From: Azolla caroliniana
Lineage: Eukaryota; Plantae; Polypodiophyta
DNA: 12,152 bases
NCBI GenBank assembly: GCA_043228905.1
Contig: JBHGNT010001093.1
Span: forward strand, 1-12,152
Direction: 5' to 3'
The stretch's first letter is position 1, and every line of letters starts with the position of its first letter. The notes under the pieces were generated by a model. The model did not search any database, had not been told where the DNA came from, and saw nothing but the letters and a program-made list of their open reading frames with translations. Positions 1 through 12,152 of this stretch are shown piece by piece. The translations under genes and the position numbers were made by a program.

Positions 1-145
1 AGCCTTGGCCAATCGGCCTCGGCCGAGTCCCTCATCAATTCGGCTCCTCTCTCTCCGCATCCGGAGAGACCTGTTTCCTAACATCATCATCATTATTATT
101 ACTATAATAATAATAGTCGAATCTTCAAACAATCGACTCACTGTT

Positions 146-176
146 TTCGACTCTTCGACTCTTCGACTCTTCGACT
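146..176. repeat. 8-bp tandem repeat (TTCGACTC)x3 + TTCGACT
   Basis: Read directly: units start at 146, 154, 162 and 170. Confidence 0.95.
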
Positions 177-244
177 GTCGGCTTTTTGAACAGTCGGATC
201 TTCCCTGTCATCGACAGTCGGCTTTTTGATCAGTCGGTTCTTCC
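171..244. repeat. 34-bp direct repeat with 40-bp period
   Basis: 171-204 tcgactgtcggctttttgaacagtcggatcttcc vs 211-244 tcgacagtcggctttttgatcagtcggttcttcc, 3 mismatches. Confidence 0.92.
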
Positions 245-455
245 TCCCACTGGAGTGACATATTCCCAACATTCCTTCCCCAACGAGTATCCCCCAATCA
301 ATAGCTTCGCTTCGATATGCCGCGATGATTAAGCTGACCCTTTTCTTTGGTACGCTATATGTATTGGCGGTCATGCATCCAAACTCCAAAAGGATATGGG
401 CCAGATTTTCGAAGAATACATTGGGGCCTCCATGCGTGCGATGGGCCTTCACAGA
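243..455 (-). pseudogene. Fragment of a retrotransposon extra-ORF (ORF3) homologue from an older, related element; cut by insertion of element A
   Basis: KAHRTHGGPNVFFENLAHILLEFGC...PKKR...IDWGILVG aligns without gaps to KAYRTREIPNQIFHEIAKFLLEIGC...PKRK...VDWGVITG in ORF 2978-3820 (23/58 identical by manual count). Homology runs right up to the LTR edge at 455/456. The left boundary is approximate. Confidence 0.85.
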
Positions 456-925
456 TGTTACCGATTAGGAACACGGTTTATGGTAAGTCCTTCGACCTAG
501 ACCTCAAAGTGACTGCGTTGCAACGAATGGTACCCTCGTACCGTAATACGTAATGGGATACCTCCCCGTATCCTAGTAGCGTATAAGGGAGACGTCTACA
601 ACCGAACTCCTTAGACAGTGCAGTAGTAACAACACTCGTACTCACGTCTATGCCCTTACGATTACAATACGCCACCAAGAATCACAGAAACACAGTAGAT
701 TAACCACAGATATGCACAGGAATTAGAGAAGATAGTACTCTATTAAGATAACGCTCTATGCACCCAAATTTACATGTTACCTCTTACAGAGGATTTTTGC
801 CCTTTATATACATAGGGTCTTTTAGCCGTTCATGCTTCCCGTGTGAACTGTTACGTGCGTTACATTTTTACTATATTATATATTTCTGCGCTCCTATCCG
901 TCGGTTACTATTCCGGCGGACAACA
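456..925 (-). repeat. 3' LTR of element A (470 bp)
   Basis: First 96 bp match 9317-9412 at 89/96. Termini on minus are TGTTGTCCG...CGGTAACA (TGTT/AACA inverted ends). The 456 boundary is firm. The 925 boundary rests on the terminal motif only, because that part of the other LTR is outside the window. Confidence 0.82.
803..810 (-). promoter_or_regulatory. Putative TATA box in LTR A
   Basis: Minus strand reads ccctatgTATATAAAgg, ~115 bp into the LTR and in the same orientation as gag-pol. Confidence 0.6.
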
Positions 926-927
926 CC

Positions 928-968
928 TAGCACGCCTGTGGGACAATGCCATGGCACGTCGGACCCAC
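928..968 (-). other. tRNA-3'-end-like sequence / inverted PBS at the position expected for the PPT
   Basis: Minus: GTGGG TCCGA CGTGCCATGGCATT GT CCCAC AGGCGTG CTA, then GG, then the LTR TG. Plus 928-944 TAGCACGCCTGTGGGAC resembles the element's PBS TGGCACGCTTGGTG and tRNA-Arg-type PBSs. Confidence 0.7.
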
Positions 969-972
969 CCCT

Positions 973-3568
973 TTAATCTTCCTCCAAAATGGCCCGGATG
1001 TTCGGTTTTGCCTCGATGTCCAGGTTCGGGGATGGTGTAGTGTCTGTAGGCGCGTCGTTGCATGGTTCCAGTATTTGCTCGGTAGGGTTTTCCATGGTGC
1101 CATTGGCTTCTTGTGTGGGCGGTCCAGGCTCCGTTGGCTCATCCTGTTCTACTGTGGCTGGCTCAGCCATCGGCAGGCTCTCAGTAGGTCGAGGTTCTGT
1201 CTCATTCGTAACCTCCTTCGTGATGCCGGCCATAGTTGTACGCTCTGGTGAATGGGGCTGAGGTTCCTCCTGGTCAGCAGTCTCACTTTCTGGTATCGCG
1301 GGGGGCTCCGCTTGCTGTTCCGTGCTGCCCACTTGTTAATTCCGGTGACGTGGGCTGAGGTTCCTCTCGTTCGGCAGTATCCTTTACCGATATCGCGATG
1401 GATTCCGTGTTGGGTTGCGTGCCACCGGCTTGCATGATTTGGTGAAATAGGTCCTCCTGACTTTCGCCAAAATCGTCTAGTAGCTACTCGAGTTCCTCTA
1501 AGTGTTGGTCCGCTAACGTGCGATAATCTTGCGCTAGGTCCTCGCGTACTGCTGCAATGCTTTCCTCATTGAGTTTGTAGAACCCTCGGCCGTCTTTTCT
1601 TCGGTTCTCCCAGTTCGCCCGATATGTATGCAACTCCGCCACTTGTGTGGCCCACACCATCTAGCCTTTGTCTAGCGCCGCTTGTAATTGCGCCGTAAAC
1701 CTCTCCCGATTTGTTTGAAGAAGTATGCGCATGTTGTCAGTTATTGCTTGGCAACAATTGCGTGCTTCTTCTATGGTTTTCTTGAGGTTTTCGATTTCTT
1801 GTTTATTGACCGCCGTCGATTCCTCATAATTGCTAGTTGAGATTCCTTCGAATGTAATTCCTCTAGCTTTCCCATTTCATTGTTCAGGCGGATTTCGAGC
1901 TGATGCCTTCTCGCCTCTTCCCGTACAAGCTACTCGTCGAACCATGCTTTCTTCTTTTCCAATAACGCCCGGAGTCCCGTTATCGCCGTTTCCGATTTTT
2001 GCTTCCTCCCGTAGTTTGGCGTTTTCTTCTTTCGTGCGGGTGTGCTGTGCTACCTCTGCTACAAGTTTCTCTTCAAGGGTCTTAACTGCCTTTTGGCCGT
2101 TGGCACGGATGTCCTTTTCTCTGTCTGAGGACTGGGGAAGTTCGGAGCTGAGGCAGTCAATCTCCGATTCCGCCAGTTGCACGACCCTTTTTGCTTTCGA
2201 GGCAATGGCGGTCTGTGCTTCTATCTCTTCTTTCGGGGCCTTGACGGCGTTGTCTGTTGGTTGAGCTGCCTGCTACGTCGTAGTCGCATTACGTTCCAAC
2301 ACCGCGATGCGTTCGTTGGACTTTTGTAGCTCGGCTTGGATCAGTTAAACCGTTTTCCAAACATTTTTATTTTTGATCGCCATATCCTTGGCGCCAATAC
2401 TGACCTTAGCCAGTTCCTTATGAACCTCGATGAGGGCCGCGTTTAATGGGGGTAGTTCCATCCCCATTCGGTGTATACCGGCGTTTCGTTGTCTACCGAC
2501 TCTGCCTAGCTACTCCTCGTCATCACTTTCCGCCGTTTGTGTTAGCGCACGCTCGATCATTTGTCACTCTGCGTGCTCCTTGGCCATTCGTTGGGAGACT
2601 TTTATTTGTTGTGTTGCCAAAAATTCCATGAGTTCAAAAGTAGTTCCGAACTGTAATAGTGCGTCGAAATCATGGGCCATGTCCAGAATGTTTGGATACG
2701 CCAAGACCTCGCTTTCCGCCGTAAATATGCCTTTCCCCTGTTGTGACGGGGCCGAAATGATCAGCCATGGTTCCTGGATTATTTCGAAGGTGGTGTTGGG
2801 CTATGTAGCTACGGAGTTGTTGACCACGGTGGTCGTCTCTGTGGCCGCGAGTGTGTCTTTAACTAATCCGCGCCCATCTTTCCTATCCAGCCTTCGCCGT
2901 TTCGGCCTCGGGCTACCCGGACGTTGCTCGGCTTCCTGCTCCTGCAGAGCTTCCTCCCTGTGCTTCGCCCGTTCCTCCTATGTTGTTCGCGTGCTAGGCT
3001 GGGTTGATTGGCGTTCATCCTCCCATTCTGTGGTGGCCAACTCAGCTAACCTTCGTTTCGCGGATCGTGGCGGCGGCGTGGGTTTGCTGGGCTGTGGTGT
3101 GAGTAGTCCTCGGGGCGGGAATAGTATCGTCAGATACTGTTGTATGATTGGCCTTAGCTTTTTGCCGCCTTGATACGCGTGCAGGCCTTCCCGCAATGCT
3201 GGTCCCGTAATGACCCCCCAATCGACCGTGCGCCCTTCGAAGGTATCAATGATGATACCTGCCTTCCGCTTGGGCATCCCATAGGCATTTATATGCACGC
3301 ATCCGATCTCCAACAGGAACTTGGCTATTTCGTGAAAGATTTGGTTGGGGATTTCCCTCGTCCTGTATGCCTTGGCGGACGTCGAATATGGCCCGAAATA
3401 TCTCTGCAAAGTTTGCCCAGGTGGGATTTTGAAATGTCTTTCTCCTAGCGATGACAGGTCAAGCTTCTTCTGGATGGATGTGTTGGTGATCGTGTCGATA
3501 TTAAGCTTCCTAGCAATGTCCTGGGCTTCAGGGTGAAGGGGGCACCTCGACAACTTTGATGTATCCAT
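973..3568 (-). pseudogene. Extra ORF (ORF3) of element A, ~865 codons: N-terminal globular domain, basic motifs, coiled-coil-like middle, Pro/Glu/Thr-rich tail
   Basis: One frame from ATG 3568 (MDTSKLSRC) to ~1335 joins track ORFs 2978-3820 and 1877-2182 through 9 in-frame stops. A 1-nt frameshift then leads into ORF 973-1332. The homologue at 243-455 supports coding status. Confidence 0.8.
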
Positions 3569-3890
3569 CCAGGCGTTTCTTGACGAGCCATCGACGCAGG
3601 GCGGCAGAAATAGGGATAGGCTTAGTACAAGGGTGAGATTCGTGGCTAGTGGGTGAGGACTGCTGGCTATGGCGAACTTGAGCTCTGTGGTAGGATGGAG
3701 AGGAGGGGAGTGAGGGGAGCGATGAGAGCAATGAGAGTTAGAAGGTTGGTTTCTGTATTGTGCAGAAAACCTTCTATTTTCTTCTTTTTGAAGCCTAGGG
3801 TTCATTGATCGGTGAGCCATCGTGGTGCCGTGTGTTCTTGGCCTAGAAGTTTGTGCATGCCTTAAGTCCTGTTAATAACGTCGCTATCTT

Positions 3891-3965: not shown

Positions 3966-5094
3966 TTACTCCGCGGATTCCCCAGCTTTGTCTTGTCCGG
4001 CGGAGAACGGGTTAGGTGGCGTAGGTCCCAGGTAAGGTTTAAGGCGAAACCCATTCACCTTTTGTCGTAACACTTCCCCGACCAAAGTGCCAAGTTGAAA
4101 CGTGCCTTGTTCCGCTCCCACTATCCAATACGGGCATGTCCAGTGGAATCTTAATTTTCCTGGCATTTGCCCCATGTGTGTTTGAAAAAAAAATACCGCT
4201 TTCCCAACCATAAAATCCTTTTCACGCGCATGCCGATGTTGGTCCACAAATGCTTTGCGCTATCGCTGTTCCTGCTCCAATATGGCCATACTGCGTAACC
4301 TTGTTTTGCCTAGTTCTAGTAGTTATTGTAGCCGTATTTGTTCGGATTTGCCCTCTGGCAGCCGGGCTCGTACTTGAATCCGTAGACTGGGTACCTGGAA
4401 TTCGACAGGCATCACGGCCTCCAGCCCAAATGCTAGCCTAAAAGGCGTGGATTGTATGCTGGTCTTATAGCTGGTTCGATACGCCCATAACGCACTGTGC
4501 AATTTGGTATCCCAATCTGTTTTGTTTTCATTGACTATCTTTTTGAGGATAGTTTGTAATGTTTTGTTCGTTGATTCGGCCAAGCCATTTTCCTGTGGAT
4601 AATACGACGTACTCTTTTTGTGAACCACAACGTAGTGTTGGGTTAGCTCGTTGATGAATGTATTCAGAAAGTGACTCCCTTGGTCACTAATGAGCTCGAT
4701 AGGGTAGCCGAAATGACACCAGATATGTTCGTAAAGGAATTTCACCGTGACTGCCGCGGTATTTTCGCGTAGTGGTTTCGCTTCTACCCACTTGGTGTAG
4801 TAATCCGTAGCCACCAGGATATACTTATTGCTGGTTCGGGCAGCCGCCAGGGTAAAGGGTCCAACGACAACACTGGTTGTGTGGCATTCTCGCGACTTCC
4901 GTGGGTTGGCCCATTCGTTGGCATAAATCGCACTGTTTGCAATATTCATACGCATCCTTTTGCGTAGTCGGCCACCAAAGTCCTGCTTGCCAGTTTTTTC
5001 GGGCCGTAACATCGCCCGCGTAATGTTCTCCTGCCGTACCACAGTGGGCTTCTTGTAAAACCGCAACCTTCTCATCCTGTCGTATTCCGCGCCT
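3966..5094 (-). pseudogene. pol: Integrase of element A (HHCC, core, GPY/F-type C-terminus), disrupted
   Basis: [13 protein letters not shown]...CKQCDLCQ (frame continuing from 5095); [60 protein letters not shown]. Stops and frameshifts are present, and the segment with the first catalytic Asp is missing at ~4865. Confidence 0.95.
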
Positions 5095-6700
5095 CTAGAT
5101 GCTATCACTGCTTTTGTGATATAGGACGTTGTCGACTAAACAGAAATTACGACTCCGTACGGCCAACCGTTTTTTCTCGTCCGTCCTTAATTGGGGTGGT
5201 GGTAACCCTGTGGTCAGAAAGTAGGTCATTTCCATCAACCACCGATCCGGAAAAGTCTTTTCTGTTCTTTCTGCTAAAGTTGCTCTATGTAGAATGTCTG
5301 CATCTGGAAAGAAATCGTCATCTTTTTGCGCCATTTCTCCATTATCTAATCTGGTCAAGAAATCCGCCACCACGTGTTGCGTCCCCGGTCGATGCTGAAT
5401 TACAAAGTCGAATTCTTGGAGCAACAACATCCATTTGGCCAATTTTCCCGTCAGTGCTTGTTTCCCCACCAGATATAGCAATGCCGTATGATCCACGTGA
5501 AACGTGAATTTCCGCCCTAGTAGATAGTGCTGGAATTTATTGATGCTGTATATCATACCCAACGCTTCACGTCCCGTTGTGGAATAGTTACACTCAGTCG
5601 TTGATAGTTTCCGACTAGCGTAGTACACTGGTCGGTACCAATTCAGCTCTGTGAGCTGCATTAACGCACTACCTATTGCTATATCCGAGGCATCCACGAA
5701 CACGTGAAATGCTTTCACCCAAACTGGTGGTTGTATTATTGGTGCCTGCGTTAGCATTATTTTTAGTGCATCATACGCCTTCTCTTCCGTTGTTGTCCAT
5801 TTGAAAGCAGTACGGTGAACGGCGACATGCAATGGTGTGGCGAAATCCGCCAAATAGCGTATCATTCGGCTGTGCCATCGTATTTGTCCCAAAAACCGGT
5901 TGAGTGCTTTCACGTTTGTCGGTGTTTTTGTGTGAGTAATCGTGGAGATTTTGTTCGGATCGACCGCTATCCCCTCACTGACTAGGTGGCCGAGGAGGGC
6001 CCCGCTGGTGACACCGAAGGCGCATTTGGCGGTATTCAGGCTTAAGCGTGCAGTTCAGCAATGCTCTAGGCAAAGCTGTAGATGCGTAAAATGTTCGGCT
6101 ACTATCCCATATACCGCAAAATTTTCTAAACAGACCTGCATGAAGGCAAGTATATATTCCCCAAAAATCTCCGTGATTGTTCGTTGAAATGTAGCCGGTG
6201 CCATCTTTAGCCCGAACATCATGACGACCGCGACATAGACTCCCAGTCCGTGACAAACGCTGTCTTCTCTTGGTCATCGGGGTGCATGCGTAGTTGAAGC
6301 CATCTAGAAAGCTGTACATGTCATGCCCTGCGACGGCATCCAGTACGTTGTTGGTGAAAGGTAAAGGGAACGCGTCCGTAATGGTTATGACGTTCAATTT
6401 CCGGTAGTCCATGCACACACGTATTTTGTCATTTTTCTTTGGTACAACTACTATCAGGCTTAGCCATGTGGTTTGTTTGACTGGTCGAATGAATCTGGCC
6501 TTGAGGAGTTTGTTAATTTCCTCTTTTACGCGAGCTGCGTAATTTGGGTTCATGCGGTATCGACATTGCTGGACCAGTTTCGCGTCGATCGCTAAATTGA
6601 TCTTATGTTGATAGAATTTCGGATCTAATCCCTTCATGTCCTTGTGGGACCAAGCAAACACATCTTTATACTTCTTGAGTAGTGCAAGCATCACGTGTCT
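5095..6700 (-). pseudogene. pol: Reverse transcriptase and RNase H of element A, disrupted
   Basis: WLSLIVVVPKKNDKIRVCMDYRKLN, DAFPLP, YSFLDGF. After a frameshifting deletion at ~6295: KTAFVTDWG...MMFGLKMAPATFQR, with the YXDD position reading CLEN (6121-6132). RNase H motifs: FVDASD, YYASRKL, HVDH, HVVADFLTR. The right boundary is approximate. Confidence 0.96.
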
Positions 6701-7109
6701 CTGATCTGGTAGTAATTCTTTTGCGATGGAGAGGAATCGGGGGTCTGACGCCGTACCCACGTTTACTTCTTCTAGGGCTGAGGCAACGACTCGTTGTGAA
6801 ATTTCCATTTCCCTCCCGAATGCCACCCGTGCTCTGCTTAATTCTAATATTGACTCTGGGTCTGGCTCGTAAGTCTCGTCGTGGAGCGCAATGGGCGTGG
6901 CGTATTCCGCCACGGTTTCTATGACGTCGATTTCGAATAGCGGAATGATCCGGGGGTGCTCATCGAGGTATACTTCTAATTCTGTATCATCCACCCCAAC
7001 CATCATATTTATATCTTCCGCGTATAACGGTGTTATGTCCTTGGGTTGTGCCGCCATTTCCTCTATTGGTACGAGAACCTTGGTGCGTCTGTGTCGAAAG
7101 CTAATGCAC

Positions 7110-7430
7110 TTATGTTGCCATCTCTGTTTGATATTTGCTGAACGAAGCCACGGTCTGCCAAGCAGCATAGGATACGCTCCTGGGGCGTCAAGGACGAGGA
7201 CTACCGCCGAGACGTCGAAGCGATGTTTGCCAACGATAATGCCTAACTTGCGTATTAAGCCTAAAGGTCGTATTGAGCGGGTATTCGCCATGCGAAGCCA
7301 AAACGGGCAAGATTCCCATTCTAAAATTCCCAATTGTTCGCATGTCTTCGCGCTAATTACGTTGACGCCAGAGCTGCCATTGATTATGCATCCTGTGATT
7401 TCCTAATCATGTAATATCAACTTAATAGCC
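7110..7430 (-). pseudogene. pol: Aspartic protease of element A
   Basis: CIINGSSGVNVI (expected catalytic Asp reads Asn at 7379-7381), LRMANT, YPMLLGRPWL. Boundaries approximate. Confidence 0.88.
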
Positions 7431-7799
7431 GGATTATGGTGATCCACCACCTTTGGTTTGGTGCTAATGTTCGTAAAGTTGGCGGAGACGCTTACCCCAA
7501 GTCTGCTTGTTATGTGATCTGCCACGGCCTAGCGGAACCGTGGGAGTAGTTGAAGTAGCTTCTCCATGGTCAGTGTTATCTCGTAGCCTGTCAGTGCTTG
7601 CCATATGGGATCCGGAGATATCACATCTTCCTCCAAAGGCCCCACATTGTTCCCGGACTCCTGCTGCATGCGTTCCGTATTTGCCGCGTTCGCTTTTTCA
7701 ACCCATGCTTGGGCCGTTTGCTGTATCTCATCTTGCGCGGCCCAATCAACATTTTTTGTTTGCTGTCTTTTCATGACTTGCTGAACTTCCACCATAATC

Positions 7800-9028
7800 G
7801 TATTGACGGCGGGCCCCTTGCCCTTGTGTAGTGGACATTGCGTGGCATAATGTTTGGGCTATTGGCAAACGAAACAATGGACGCTAGATTTTCCTTTCTC
7901 GGCAATTGGTGGCGTGTTCGGATCCCCAAGTGTGACTTGCTCCTCCCGGTCTTGGTTCGTTCTTCTGAGCATTCACGATGGTTGTCGGCGCGGCTCTTGG
8001 TGCCGGTCATCGTCTGAACATTCGTCGTACCGCCATTGGTCCCGATACTGACGATGTTTCCTGCGAGGCCCATTGAAGCCACAACGTTTGTTCGTCAGAC
8101 GGTAATTCTTGTAGCACCGGCCTCCTTTATTATATCTATGGTTGCCTCGGTAGTCTTCGTCCTCTGGCTCTTCTTCCTCGGAATCGTTGTTATTCCGACG
8201 ATTCCGATAGTGCCGGTTCTCGCGTGGGTTCTGATCCGTATACCGGGGTTGTTCTTCTTGACGCCTTTGCTCATTACGGCGAGGTGGGCACTGTGTTTCC
8301 ACACTTCGTACTGTGGGCATGGATCTGTTCAACATATTGTACTCACACTACTCGATCGTGTGTACTTTTGAGTGACCGATGTGGCAGTGAATTCGCATGT
8401 TGCATTCCACTGCGGAATGCCTAGAATAGAGCCAAATCGTGCACTGGATTGCCTGGCGAAAATGTCGTTCCTCGTCCTGAGGTAATGCTTGCCGTAATGA
8501 GGACATGGAAAACCTTTCCTTTTCTTCGTCCAACTCGAGTTGTAGCGCTCGTTCTATGACCATATCGGCTGTTTCTCCTTTCGAACTATTGTTGTTGAGC
8601 GTCGTCCATATCGGTCGTCGTAAAGCTGCCAAAAATGTCTCTCGAGCCTCGTCCTCTGTCGGACCTCGTTCTAATTTCCGCCGTAGATTTTGGAAGCGTA
8701 AACTAAAATCTGCTATAGTCTCGGCCGACAACTATTTAATTGTATAAAACTGCCTGAGGATTTTGCGTTGTGGAACCCTCCGATGAAAGAAACGCAGAAA
8801 GGCCGACTACAGCTGGTCGAAGGTCGTGATTGCTGGCAGATCCATTTGCGAATGCCAAAACACCGCTCTCCCATTCAAGGTTAATCTGAAATGTGTCATT
8901 TTGGACTAGTGTGCTTTTTCTTTGGGAAGTCTCTGCGCCATGTGATTTGCATTCCAGACATTCACGAACAGGTGAATGTGGGTTGCGGCGTCGGTTTCAC
9001 CGTTGAAGCAAGGATAAGAGAAGGCCAT
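7800..9028 (-). pseudogene. gag: Gag of element A with three CCHC-type knuckles, in frame with pol
   Basis: From ATG 9028: MAFSYPCFNGETDAATHIHLF...LNGRAVFWH...TFDQL...ETIADFSLRFQNL (retrotransposon gag core). Knuckles at 8402-8443, 8345-8386 and 7835-7876. Track ORFs 8348, 7973, 7529 and 5975 share one frame. The true start may be further upstream. Confidence 0.88.
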
Positions 9029-9298: not shown

Positions 9299-9312
9299 CA
9301 CCAAGCGTGCCA
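9299..9312 (-). other. Primer-binding site of element A, probably tRNA-Arg
   Basis: TGGCACGCTTGGTG, 4 nt (CTTT) inside the LTR end ...TAACA. The TGG start is complementary to tRNA CCA. The TGGCACGC core is recalled from tRNA-Arg-primed plant Tat/Ogre elements, so the tRNA identity is unverified. Confidence 0.82.
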
Positions 9313-9316
9313 AAAG

Positions 9317-9412
9317 TGTTACCGATTAGGAACATGGTCTATGGTCAGTCCTTCGACCTAGACCTCAAAGTGACTACATTGCAATGAATGGTACCCTCAT
9401 ACCGTAATACGT
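9317..9412 (-). repeat. U5-end fragment of the 5' LTR of element A
   Basis: 89/96 identical to 456-551; homology stops exactly where TGTCGCG starts at 9413. Confidence 0.96.
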
Positions 9413-9571
9413 TGTCGCGGAATTCCGCGCCTGCGAGTCGGTCAAACGGGACCACCGGGGTCTTTGACCAAGGACGATGGATCAGGTGACTTGTGCTTGT
9501 TAGGAGTCGACCGTTGTTTAGGTTTACAATTGGGTCGTTCTTGTTGTCGAAGATGCTTGTGTGGGTTGACT

Positions 9572-9597
9572 GAGAGAAAGAGAGAGAGAGAGAGAGA
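9572..9597. repeat. Imperfect (GA)n microsatellite in LTR B
   Basis: gagagaaa followed by (ga)9 at 9580-9597. Confidence 0.93.
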
Positions 9598-9942
9598 ATA
9601 AAGAGATTGTGAAAATATTTACCGCACCACAAAGATGTCGTGAAGCACGCTACACATGTGCCAAACGTTGCGATGTGTGCGTTACACGTGCGCAGACAAG
9701 CACTGGCCTCTATCCGCAAGTGGTGATGGAAGAGCGAAAGGATCGTTGAAGACAATGGAACGGTGGAAGGATTAGTGCTTGCGAGAAGTATTAAAGATAG
9801 ATATGGTCGAGAATCCCAGCTCCTGGTTTAAACTTTTGACTTCAAAGTTGAGATACAAGACACATTGCTAATGAGATAACTAGGATTTATTAATTATTAT
9901 TGATTGCATACATTACTTGATTTCCTTTCCCTTCCTCTCCTT

Positions 9943-9951
9943 CTTATATAG
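9943..9951 (-). promoter_or_regulatory. Putative TATA box in LTR B
   Basis: Minus strand CTATATAAG, same orientation as pol, ~50 bp upstream of AATAAA. Confidence 0.65.
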
Positions 9952-10007
9952 ATGTCCCCATGAATATGTGCATGTGAGGGTGTAGTACATGCATACAATG
10001 CATGAAA

Positions 10008-10053
10008 TGCATGTGATGCATGAACACCAAATGGCAATCATGCATCACATGCA
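10008..10053. repeat. Perfect 16-bp inverted repeat with 14-nt spacer
   Basis: TGCATGTGATGCATGA (10008-10023) / TCATGCATCACATGCA (10038-10053). Confidence 0.93.
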
Positions 10054-10361
10054 ATGCATGATGACCATGTACCTCAACCAAGCTCTCATGTACCAATAGT
10101 TCGTGTGAAAAGTACAATGAAGAAAACAAGTTTTAAAGGAAATAACCTAGTCTAATGGTATGTCAATTGCCTGCTATCTTAGAGCTGTAAGGTTCAAACC
10201 CTTACTTGTACCTCAACACCTAAACACACATTACACGTGCACATTCATGTGTTTGACATACACATCTAACCATCACTCCTTTCATACGTGTGCATATTGC
10301 ATCTTCTTGATTTCCCTCGTTCCACGCGATTTTCACACTGTTGCCGAAAATCTTCACGACA

Positions 10362-10373
10362 TCCACCCCCACC
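10362..10373 (-). other. Polypurine tract of element B
   Basis: Minus GGTGGGGGTGGA immediately before the LTR start TGTCGTG, ~60 bp after the integrase stop. Confidence 0.82.
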
Positions 10374-10431
10374 AAACCGCACGTCCTCCGGTACATGCCA
10401 AGAAGTGAGTGTGAGATTTTGGCTACGGTGA

Positions 10432-12152
10432 TCAATCAATTTCCTCGATGGCCTCATCAACCTCGCTCACATTTGTGGATGCCGTCGTACTATCTTCATT
10501 GTTGAGGTCATCCAGGTTACGATCCTCATCTTGTCTTTTCTTGAATATCTTTACTCTTTTCCCCGCAATGGGTATGGCCAGCCTTGATCCGTTTAGCTCT
10601 GCGAGGTGGTAGGTGGCGTTGTCGTTGGCACTCATCACCACATACGATCCGAACCACCTTCTTGCGAACTTCCTTGTCGTCCTGTGTTGGTTCCCCAGGT
10701 TGTTGTCATAGACCAATACCCAATCTCCTTCTTTGATCTTCTTGGGACGCAGTCGGTGTGTATTATCAAACCAAATCTTATTCTTCACGCGGGTTGTCTC
10801 CATTATCTTTCACGCACTCTCTAGGTCTTCGGGTCTTCTTTCGAGTTGTCTGATTCATGCCGCCAATAATTCTTCCCAACTCATCTCATTCTCCCATGGT
10901 ATTGCTACCCATGAGGCGATCGTCCTCTCGATGGGCATTACTGGTTTCTGTCCATACATGAGCTCTGCTGGCATATAGCCTGTCACGGAACTGTGGAAGT
11001 TCTATTAGCCCACAATGCATAGGGCAATAATCGCGGCCAATTCCCAACTCGACCATCACATGCTTGTACGATGGCTTTGACTATTGGTCCATGCCCTCGG
11101 TCAATCTTCCCATTTGCTTCCGGATTATAGGTAGTTGTGAGGGAGAGGTTTACGCCTAGTCGCTCAAAGAGCTCCATTGCTTCATGTGCATCTAGCTCTC
11201 CTCGGTCGACCACTATCTTTCCCACACATCCATATCGGCAGACAACCTCTTCGAGAAGAAATTTGCATATGGCTGTCGTTGTCTTATTTGCTAAGGCTCG
11301 TCCATCTACTTGGTTTGTTAGGTCTTCCCTCGCTAGTACCAAGTACTTCATCTGTCCCACTCCCATTGGCATCGAGACCAGATCCACCATCCATTTAAAG
11401 TGTATGGTGAGTGGGTATATTGGTCGCAACCCATCACAGTGACGTATGTTCGAATGTACTTGACAACTTTCGCATGTGGACATGAAATGTAGTACATCTT
11501 TATACATGCTCGGCCACCAATACTTTTCCTTTAGCTTTTCAAACGTTGCCCACGTTCCTCTATGACTTGCCCATGGACTTTTGTGGAATTCAGACATCAA
11601 TGTTGTTTGGTCATCTTTCTTCACCACTACTCGTTGTGGCATCCCGATCCTTCTCTTTGGATGCCGCTAGAGGAATCCTCCCTTCAGAAAGTATTTCTAA
11701 GATTTCTTTCGTATTTGTAGAGCCTCCTCCTTCGTCCATGAAGCATATGCCATCATCATTCTCAAGAATCTACCGATTAGTAACCACTCCCCTTCATACT
11801 CGTTCTCGTTGAAAGCGTGGAGGGTTGGTGGGCCTCTGTCTTTTGCCGACAGTTGGGCTGCCTTAAAGAAGTCGAGGGCGACGTTTTTGTCTTCTGAAAC
11901 CATGTCAGTTTCATCCTCGAATCTTGTTCTTGACAGCATATCAGCCATGGCATTCTTCTTCCCAGCAATGTGGCGGATTTCCGAGTTCAAAGACTTTATA
12001 TAAGTGATCCACCTTAACATAGCCAGATCTGGTGTCGCACATCCGGAGATCATCCCAAGGATTGGGAGGCAATCCGTTTCAATTACCACCTCTGACCCGA
12101 TCAGGTAGTCCAGGCTTGTCTACTTTTACTACAGACACGATACCCCAAAGTT
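10432..12152 (-). pseudogene. pol: pol of element B (RNase H C-terminal part and integrase), disrupted, 5'-truncated by the window
   Basis: IETDCLP...RHIAGKKNAMADMLSR (RNase H); FHKSPWASHRG...CESCQ (HHCC); WMVDLV, VVDRGE, YNPEANGKIDRGH (core); RRWFGSY...IAGKRVKIF (GPY/F-type). In-frame stops at ~11667 and 11697, frameshift at ~10995, further stops at ~10813 and ~10855. Confidence 0.95.

What the first reader, a model, noticed from the sequence alone, without database searches (positions are those of the whole stretch)
926..974. Inverted second PBS / tRNA-3'-end mimic in place of the PPT: possible non-canonical priming
Seen: in the RNA sense, the 3' LTR of A is preceded by GTCCCACAGGCGTGCTA-GG rather than a purine run. 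This looks like a tRNA 3' end (T-stem 3' strand, acceptor strand, C[C>T]A) stopping 2 nt before the LTR TG. It pairs with the element's own PBS (9299-9312) over 11 contiguous bp including two G.U pairs, plus 2 more bp after a one-base bulge. Both sites fit one consensus, TGGCACGCCTGGTGGGAC, so the internal region is bracketed by inward-facing PBSs. Established: LTR elements normally prime the minus strand with tRNA and the plus strand with a PPT next to the 3' LTR, and a ~2-nt offset from the LTR end is typical of a primer end. Inference: the plus strand may be primed by the same tRNA on minus-strand cDNA, or the RNA may self-prime or circularise through 5'-3' pairing. I do not know whether this has been described for this family.
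Basis: partly seen in the sequence, partly recalled or inferred. Interest (0 to 1): 0.85.

Follow-up and report, generated by a model that had tools for sequence, protein, structure and literature searches.

The report
Second tRNA site replaces polypurine tract
A group of plant jumping genes lacks the purine tract that normally starts their second DNA strand and carries in its place a conserved, inverted match to the tail and T-arm of a transfer RNA, split by a small hairpin, so a second host transfer RNA likely starts that strand, which would be a copying route I did not find described.

Summary
The 3' LTR of this minus-strand Ty3/gypsy element spans 456-925 (mixed flanks at both ends), so no polypurine tract (PPT) touches it. 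At 926-968 lies a three-part module that, on minus-strand cDNA, matches tRNA-Arg nt 76-59 (17 nt), loops out a hairpin, then matches nt 58-49. The supposed PPT at 964-974 is part T-stem match, part stop codon. The module stands in 82 of 121 metagenome loci (27 groups): the hairpin co-varies (0/500 shuffles), the T-arm match holds in 26 of 27 groups against 0 of 21 18-nt controls, 0 of 27 have a purine run within 60 nt, and all 28 loci with coding homology place it at the 3' end. The true PBS has the same build. Best reading (0.6): a second tRNA primes the plus strand. Rivals: the element's own tRNA-like RNA as primer, or 5'-3' pairing. No biochemical test; host tRNA not seen. Nine paper searches found no description. 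The scan noted this before on at least five other pieces of the same genome.

The parts
456..925 (-). 3' LTR of element A (470 bp, TG...CA), TATA box at about 803-810
   Evidence: 93% identical to 9317-9412 over 96 nt; loose ends with mixed flanks at 456 and 925; TATA 116 nt from the LTR start in gag-pol sense only
926..927 (-). 2-nt spacer between the site and the LTR
   Evidence: 2 nt in 76 of 82 related loci, 4 nt in 6
928..944 (+). Second, inverted PBS: complement of tRNA-Arg nt 76-59 lacking one base at 65/66; reads as a PBS on minus-strand cDNA (window + strand)
   Evidence: the same 3' half lies in genes called tRNA-Arg in 16 of 19 bacterial loci
946..957 (+). Small hairpin (4-5 bp) predicted to loop out between tRNA nt 59 and 58
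   Evidence: 86% of cells paired, 23 double-sided changes, 0/500 shuffles; 946 reads G in 90-93% of depth
959..968 (+). Decamer complementary to tRNA T-loop and T-stem 5' strand (nt 58-49)
   Evidence: 9 of 10 in the window; 7 or more of 10 in 26 of 27 groups, 0 of 21 18-nt controls, 2 of 27 shifted windows
964..974 (-). Purine-looking run; not a conserved PPT (T-stem match plus part of the stop codon at 975-973)
973..3871 (-). Broken extra ORF in sense orientation after integrase; intact 1161-aa relative in L009; no Pfam family above cut-off
3966..8731 (-). Broken gag-PR-RT-RH-INT of element A (gag start lies further up and was not mapped)
   Evidence: intact relatives P0125, P0127
9275..9297 (-). 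Hairpin (9297-9280) and T-loop-complementary pentamer (9279-9275) after the true PBS
   Evidence: 9279 reads the T-loop-matching base in 89-92% of depth
9299..9312 (-). True PBS, 14 nt, 4 nt from the 5' LTR; G.U wobble at position 9
   Evidence: T at position 9 in 75-91% of depth
9317..9412 (-). U5 end of the 5' LTR, cut by nested element B

Best explanation
This Ty3/gypsy lineage has no polypurine tract and carries in its place a second, inverted tRNA-Arg-matching site that likely lets a second host tRNA prime the plus strand. Shown: LTR boundary, module, conservation, hairpin covariation, lack of PPT, 3' position, same build at the true PBS. Inferred: (1) tRNA-Arg primes minus-strand DNA at the PBS, helped by a T-loop contact beyond a hairpin; (2) after the first jump RT copies U3 and the module and RNase H clears the RNA; (3) a second tRNA-Arg anneals to the exposed minus-strand DNA over about 27 nt (76-59 and 58-49), the hairpin looping out at the 59/58 step and one tRNA base bulged; (4) its CCA end sits 2 nt from U3, so plus-strand synthesis would give the usual 2-nt extension that integrase trims; (5) RNase H would remove both tRNAs by one rule.
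For: No purine run of 10 or more within 60 nt of the LTR in 27 of 27 groups, so something must stand in for the PPT; the RNase H motifs of intact relatives are present. The module lies at the 3' end in all 28 of 82 loci with coding homology, and gag follows a PBS across the LTR in L046, L058, L067, L077 and L029. TATA points in gag-pol sense in 13 of 21 groups, opposite in 2. The match continues past the hairpin into the T-arm, a part my search pattern did not ask for (26 of 27 against 0 of 21). The true PBS, where a tRNA is expected to bind, has the same PBS-hairpin-T-loop build in 9 of 9 aligned autonomous-type sites. A natural tRNA-Arg 3' 28-mer binds the 3' site at -40 to -52 kcal/mol against -27 to -41 for 5'-3' self-pairing, in 18 of 18 site pairs, and the predicted duplex loops the hairpin out between nt 59 and 58 (RNA/RNA parameters, bacterial stand-in). 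Nt 12-17 of the 3' site match tRNA but not the element's own PBS in any of 20 pairs. L105 holds a full 18-nt PBS with the base that the 3' site lacks, which fits a real tRNA as minus-strand primer (one locus). Spacer 2 nt in 76 of 82.
Against: No cDNA end, primer or RNA was seen. The host tRNA gene was not found (0 tRNAs in 60 of 121 loci scanned). The 17-mer was imposed by my pattern, so its fixity in L001-L121 is no evidence; only one search is unbiased, and only for close copies. The wobble test is inconclusive: 20 wobble-compatible transitions on 8 sites against 4 incompatible on 2 sites. Position 10 agrees at both ends in 19 of 20 pairs (about four related groups), as self-pairing would also predict, and self-pairing is as strong as or stronger than tRNA on the true PBS in many pairs. 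A tRNA on DNA is itself a possible RNase H substrate (established knowledge). Groups are related, so covariation counts are not independent events.
Confidence: 0.6

Rival explanations
1. The element's own RNA is the plus-strand primer: the tRNA-like stretch survives RNase H and is cut after CCA, acting as a non-purine PPT that borrows the specificity used to remove the tRNA primer.
For: Needs no change to the canonical cycle; the RNA is already in place on minus-strand DNA; 2-nt offset; in RNA sense the module can fold a T-arm-like stem, 89% of cells paired.
Against: In a full RNA:DNA hybrid the hairpin would not form, yet it co-varies. The outer T-stem pair fails in 9 of 29 rows, and covariation of that stem cannot be tested because one side was fixed by the pattern. 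The window's module folds no better than shuffles (z +1.4) and Rfam finds nothing.
Confidence: 0.2
2. The module is mainly a 5'-3' cyclisation or self-priming element: the RNA's tRNA mimic pairs with the PBS module, and the plus strand starts by some other means.
For: 11+2 bp pairing; position 10 concordant in 19 of 20 pairs; self-duplex -27 to -41 kcal/mol; cyclisation is reported for Ty1/Ty3 (search listing only).
Against: Does not explain the missing PPT or the 2-nt offset. Nt 12-17 and most of the decamer have no partner at the 5' end. In the window's family and L009/L067 the T-loop variant at 55 mismatches the 5' pentamer but wobbles with tRNA. A cut at CCA before copying would detach U3-R from the genome (inference).
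Confidence: 0.12
3. A relic: an old aberrant jump copied the primer tRNA into the 3' junction of a founder, and the real PPT is a degenerate purine run upstream.
For: AAAGGGGTGGG at 974-964 in this copy; X5 contigs that leave at 967 into purine-rich sequence in RNA sense (29 contigs); unchecked scan notes report tRNA-copy inversions in other genomes. Such an event is a plausible origin of the module.
Against: Kept across 27 groups with unlike LTR ends and in short non-coding units; compensatory stems; purine runs of 10 or more in 0 of 27 within 60 nt and 4 of 27 within 120 nt; a start at 964 would leave 38 extra bp.
Confidence: 0.04
4. The packaged RNA is antisense to gag-pol, so the 17-nt site is the first primer site and 9299-9312 the second.
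For: The 3' site is the stronger tRNA match; the ends are symmetric.
Against: TATA in gag-pol sense in 35 of 57 loci, opposite in 4. Both strands would still need tRNA priming.
Confidence: 0.04

Closest known systems
Canonical Ty3/gypsy reverse transcription (yeast Ty3 and Ty1; PMC5371799, passages read)
   Same: tRNA-primed minus strand; bipartite PBS in which acceptor stem and T-arm bind separate segments (Ty1 with a small internal loop); PBS not rewritten by the primer, which fits the family-wide wobble at PBS position 9 here.
   Different: Ty1 and Ty3 prime the plus strand from a PPT. Ty3's 3' segment lies in U3 and is complementary to tRNA in RNA sense; here the 3' site is outside the LTR, equals tRNA in RNA sense and is complementary only on minus-strand cDNA.
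Plant non-chromoviruses: Athila, Tat/Ogre, Phygy, Selgy (PMC6317226, passages and Additional file 5 read; bioRxiv 10.64898/2026.03.20.713144, passages)
   Same: gag-PR-RT-RH-INT, no chromodomain, about 9 kb, extra 3' ORF; Ogre and TatIII use tRNA-Arg.
   Different: No aRH (unlike Tat); Arg primer and sense 3' ORF (Athila: Asp/Asn/Ala, antisense ORF, conserved PPT junction); Phygy uses Trp and has no extra ORF; no second PBS is listed for any lineage in what I read.
Helenus TRIMs (PMC10886601, passages read)
   Same: tRNA-derived sequence inside an LTR element.
   Different: There it lies in the LTR as a Pol III promoter, does not pair with the PBS, and the PPT is kept.
Tf1/Sushi, Tcn1 and TAR self-priming (PMC6317226, passages)
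   Same: Non-canonical priming; element sequence complementary to the PBS.
   Different: Concerns the minus strand and uses the 5' end of the transcript; here the only PBS-complementary site is at the 3' internal end.

Membership tests
Ty3/gypsy LTR retrotransposon | Direct LTRs with TG...CA ends | tested here: met
Ty3/gypsy LTR retrotransposon | Order gag-PR-RT-RH-INT | tested here: met
   RH then INT in the window; gag, RT, RH, INT in intact relatives at 67-68% identity; protease read by eye only
Ty3/gypsy LTR retrotransposon | tRNA PBS after the 5' LTR | tested here: met
Canonical LTR replication | PPT adjoining the 3' LTR | tested here: not met
   0 of 27 groups with a purine run of 10 or more within 60 nt
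Athila | No chromodomain, no aRH | tested here: met
   No Chromo or RVT_3 hit in 4 of 4 relatives
Athila | tRNA-Asp/Asn/Ala PBS, antisense 3' ORF, PPT junction | tested here: not met
   Arg-type site, sense ORF, no PPT
Athila / OTA | Placement among REXdb reference domains | not testable with these tools
   REXdb file too large to read; own tree of 32 rows gives a separate clade (100/96) among plant-type proteins, without labelled references
Tat / Ogre / Retand | Extra archaeal-type RNase H | tested here: not met
Phygy | tRNA-Trp PBS, no extra ORF | tested here: not met
Phygy / Athila | TSD length and sequence | not testable with these tools
   The start of A's 5' LTR lies outside the window; no genome held
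Tf1-type self-priming | Transcript 5' end complementary to the PBS | tested here: not met
   No site in the LTR pairs 11 or more with the PBS
tRNA or tRNA-like RNA family | Rfam or ARAGORN match | tested here: not met
Dual tRNA priming (proposed) | tRNA attached to the 5' end of plus-strand cDNA | not testable with these tools
   needs cDNA end mapping or an in vitro assay

The most novel reading that the evidence does not exclude
A high-copy plant Ty3/gypsy lineage, with its short non-coding parasites, has dropped the PPT and primes both DNA strands with host tRNA-Arg at mirror-image bipartite sites, making the two cDNA ends by one symmetric rule; the inverted sites may also let LTRs or the internal region flip (L075).
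Probability: 0.6. Interest if true: 0.9.

Novelty: new variant of a known kind. Interest (0 to 1): 0.8.

Why it matters
PPT priming of the plus strand is treated as general for LTR retrotransposons and retroviruses; the known exceptions in priming concern the minus strand. A successful lineage without a PPT would break that rule. It would give a natural system for asking how RT and RNase H choose and spare a primer on DNA, expose the element to tRNA fragments at two steps, and explain why PPT-based annotation can miss or mis-orient such elements. Even under the main rival, a CCA-ended tRNA mimic acting as PPT would be new.

Tried and rejected
No whole genome is held, so full-length copies and TSDs of A were not seen. 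Viral contigs: pattern 0 hits, protein 0 loci, tRNA pattern 0 hits. No RNA holder listed. ARAGORN found no tRNA in the window or in 60 of 121 loci. Rfam: 0 hits on 850-1100. Folding the window's module alone gave no signal over shuffles; this copy differs from most copies at 929 and 946. Rejected: LTR extends to ~960; 964-974 as PPT; the 12-nt palindrome at 946-957 as a dimer signal, because other groups have a 3-nt loop and no palindrome; the 17-nt site as the ordinary PBS of a plus-strand element. The wobble-direction test was inconclusive. Rows dropped: 10 of 121 loci lacked full context for clustering; one representative per cluster was used (27 and 21); L113 was counted with the 18-nt controls and added to alignment A1; 3 of 35 proteins were left out of the tree. 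The 18-nt controls are taken as ordinary seed-plant PBSs by inference; coding orientation was seen for one (L063). Sequence look-up in earlier findings returned nothing.

Full report
1. Setting. The window holds a decayed minus-strand Ty3/gypsy element A: 3' LTR 456-925, extra ORF about 973-3871, gag-pol 3966-8731, PBS 9299-9312, and the U5 end of the 5' LTR at 9317-9412, cut by a nested element B. The closest named protein is from a liverwort at 45% identity, and unnamed intact relatives reach 67-69%. The host is likely a non-seed land plant; an unchecked scan note says fern, which I did not test.

2. Observation. The 17-mer is at 928-944, 2 nt from the LTR. It pairs with the PBS over 11 bp with two G.U, plus 2 after a bulge; it is the only such site in the window, and 0 of 200,000 random 17-mers matched. 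Because B cuts the 5' LTR, the boundary came from public contigs: loose ends with mixed flanks stand before 456 (4 of 4 runs) and behind 925 (2 of 4 runs among the 24 of 905 rows shown). Place 929 reads G in 87-94% of depth, so most copies end in CCA in RNA sense. Depth stays high over 896-1007 and falls more than tenfold after 1008 (depth is no copy number).

3. The module. The 74 17-nt loci with full context fall into 27 groups at 70% context identity. After the 17-mer comes a 4-bp hairpin whose stem differs between groups but stays paired: 86% of 116 cells paired, 23 double-sided changes, covariation score 0.498 against 0.205 shuffled, 0/500, and at most 0.118 when slid (related rows are not independent, and one row is misaligned). 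Then comes a decamer predicted from tRNA structure (T-stem 5' strand and invariant T-loop, the latter recalled): 7 or more of 10 matches in 26 of 27 groups, 0 of 21 18-nt controls and 2 of 27 shifted windows. The same 3' half lies in genes that ARAGORN calls tRNA-Arg in 16 of 19 bacterial loci. Ogre and TatIII are listed with tRNA-Arg PBSs. The host tRNA was not seen.

4. No PPT. The longest purine run in RNA sense is under 10 in 27 of 27 groups within 60 nt of the LTR; 4 of 27 reach 10 within 120 nt. In the window the run at 964-974 overlaps the decamer and the stop codon of the extra ORF. Element B has a G-rich tract directly at its inferred LTR start, though its strict purine run is only 5.

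5. Orientation. All 28 of 82 loci with homology to the window's ORFs have them in the same sense as the window: 25 show the 3' ORF or integrase on the internal side, and 4 show gag across the LTR, one of them both; L029 adds a fifth gag case. TATA boxes point in gag-pol sense in 13 of 21 groups and 35 of 57 loci, opposite in 2 and 4. Eight loci hold short units (0.8-1.9 kb) without detected pol between a PBS and the module; they are oriented by analogy only.

6. The true PBS mirrors the module. In 9 of 9 aligned autonomous-type sites a 13-14-nt PBS is followed by a hairpin and a T-loop-complementary pentamer. In the window's family the pentamer is complete in 89-92% of depth, and PBS position 9 is a wobble in 75-91%. 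The latter fits the report that Ty1 and Ty3 do not inherit the primer's sequence.

7. Mechanism. With natural tRNA-Arg ends as stand-ins, the 3' site binds at -40 to -52 kcal/mol (core alone -27 to -35), with the hairpin looped out between tRNA nt 59 and 58, the step where primer copying normally stops (recalled). Self-pairing of the RNA ends gives -27 to -41, and tRNA on the true PBS -24 to -39 (RNA/RNA parameters, internal folds ignored). I therefore favour a second tRNA priming the plus strand on minus-strand DNA (0.6). For it: the missing PPT, the 2-nt offset (76 of 82), the shared build with the true PBS, tRNA-matching bases without a 5' partner, and one full 18-nt PBS (L105). Against or neutral: no direct evidence; the wobble test is inconclusive; position 10 agrees at both ends in 19 of 20 pairs, which fits either two tRNA variants or self-pairing; self-pairing could compete at the PBS. 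Rivals: own RNA as primer 0.2, cyclisation 0.12, relic 0.04, antisense genome 0.04.

8. Comparison. The element is a Ty3/gypsy non-chromovirus without aRH or chromodomain, in a clade of unnamed proteins (100/96) in a tree without reference labels. It fails the listed features of Athila, Tat and Phygy. Ty1/Ty3 bipartite PBSs, Helenus and Tf1-type self-priming are the nearest analogies, and all keep a PPT or concern the minus strand. Papers seen: PMC6317226 passages and Additional file 5; PMC5371799, PMC10886601, PMC9289625, PMC11963269 and bioRxiv 10.64898/2026.03.20.713144 passages; PMC12220202 abstract only (tRNA-Gly copies next to deleted HIV proviruses, not priming). Nine searches listed no paper on a second inverted PBS or a tRNA-primed plus strand; the library lacks most subscription journals, and I read few of the listed papers.

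9. Earlier scan notes. After forming my reading I found five notes on other pieces of the same genome with the same conclusion, and three on tRNA-copy inversions elsewhere. They are not independent support. The latter suggest an origin for the module that I did not test.

10. Verdict. A real, lineage-wide replacement of the PPT by a structured tRNA-Arg site; the mechanism is likely dual tRNA priming and is unproven. New variant of a known kind; interest 0.8.

Noticed in passing
window 9413-12152: Nested Ty3/gypsy element B (minus strand) inserted after ACGT at 9409-9412, which fits the NCGN target reported for Phygy; inferred 3' LTR 9413-10361 with a G-rich tract directly before it.
   Followed up: partly
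window 973-3871; L009 1408-4893; L014 167-3259: Extra ORF of 1030-1161 aa in sense orientation after integrase, with a conserved N-terminal block and long helical repeats; no Pfam hit above cut-off; its stop codon abuts the module in the window.
   Followed up: partly
L075 (sites at oriented 999, 1569, 2691): Two LTRs head to head, and a U3-type LTR end joined to a 5'-type PBS: perhaps a switch through the homology of the two sites, or a misassembly.
   Followed up: partly
L105 301-325 region: U5-type LTR end followed by a full 18-nt PBS where related units have 10 nt; looks like a fixed copy of the primer tRNA.
   Followed up: partly
L113 271-326: Module with the full 18-nt match plus hairpin and T-loop match on a different LTR; may be the ancestral form; orientation unknown.
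   Followed up: no
L018, L034, L035, L037, L039, L048, L057, L075: Short units of 0.8-1.9 kb without detected pol, bracketed by both sites and sometimes in tandem sharing an LTR (L035): likely non-autonomous parasites of this lineage, with a 10-nt PBS.
   Followed up: partly
window 120-250: Short tandem repeats (8-nt and 40-nt periods) in the flank beyond the 3' LTR.
   Followed up: no
window 9985-10070: CATG-rich imperfect palindrome (arms 10001-10023 and 10038-10060) inside the LTR of element B.
   Followed up: no
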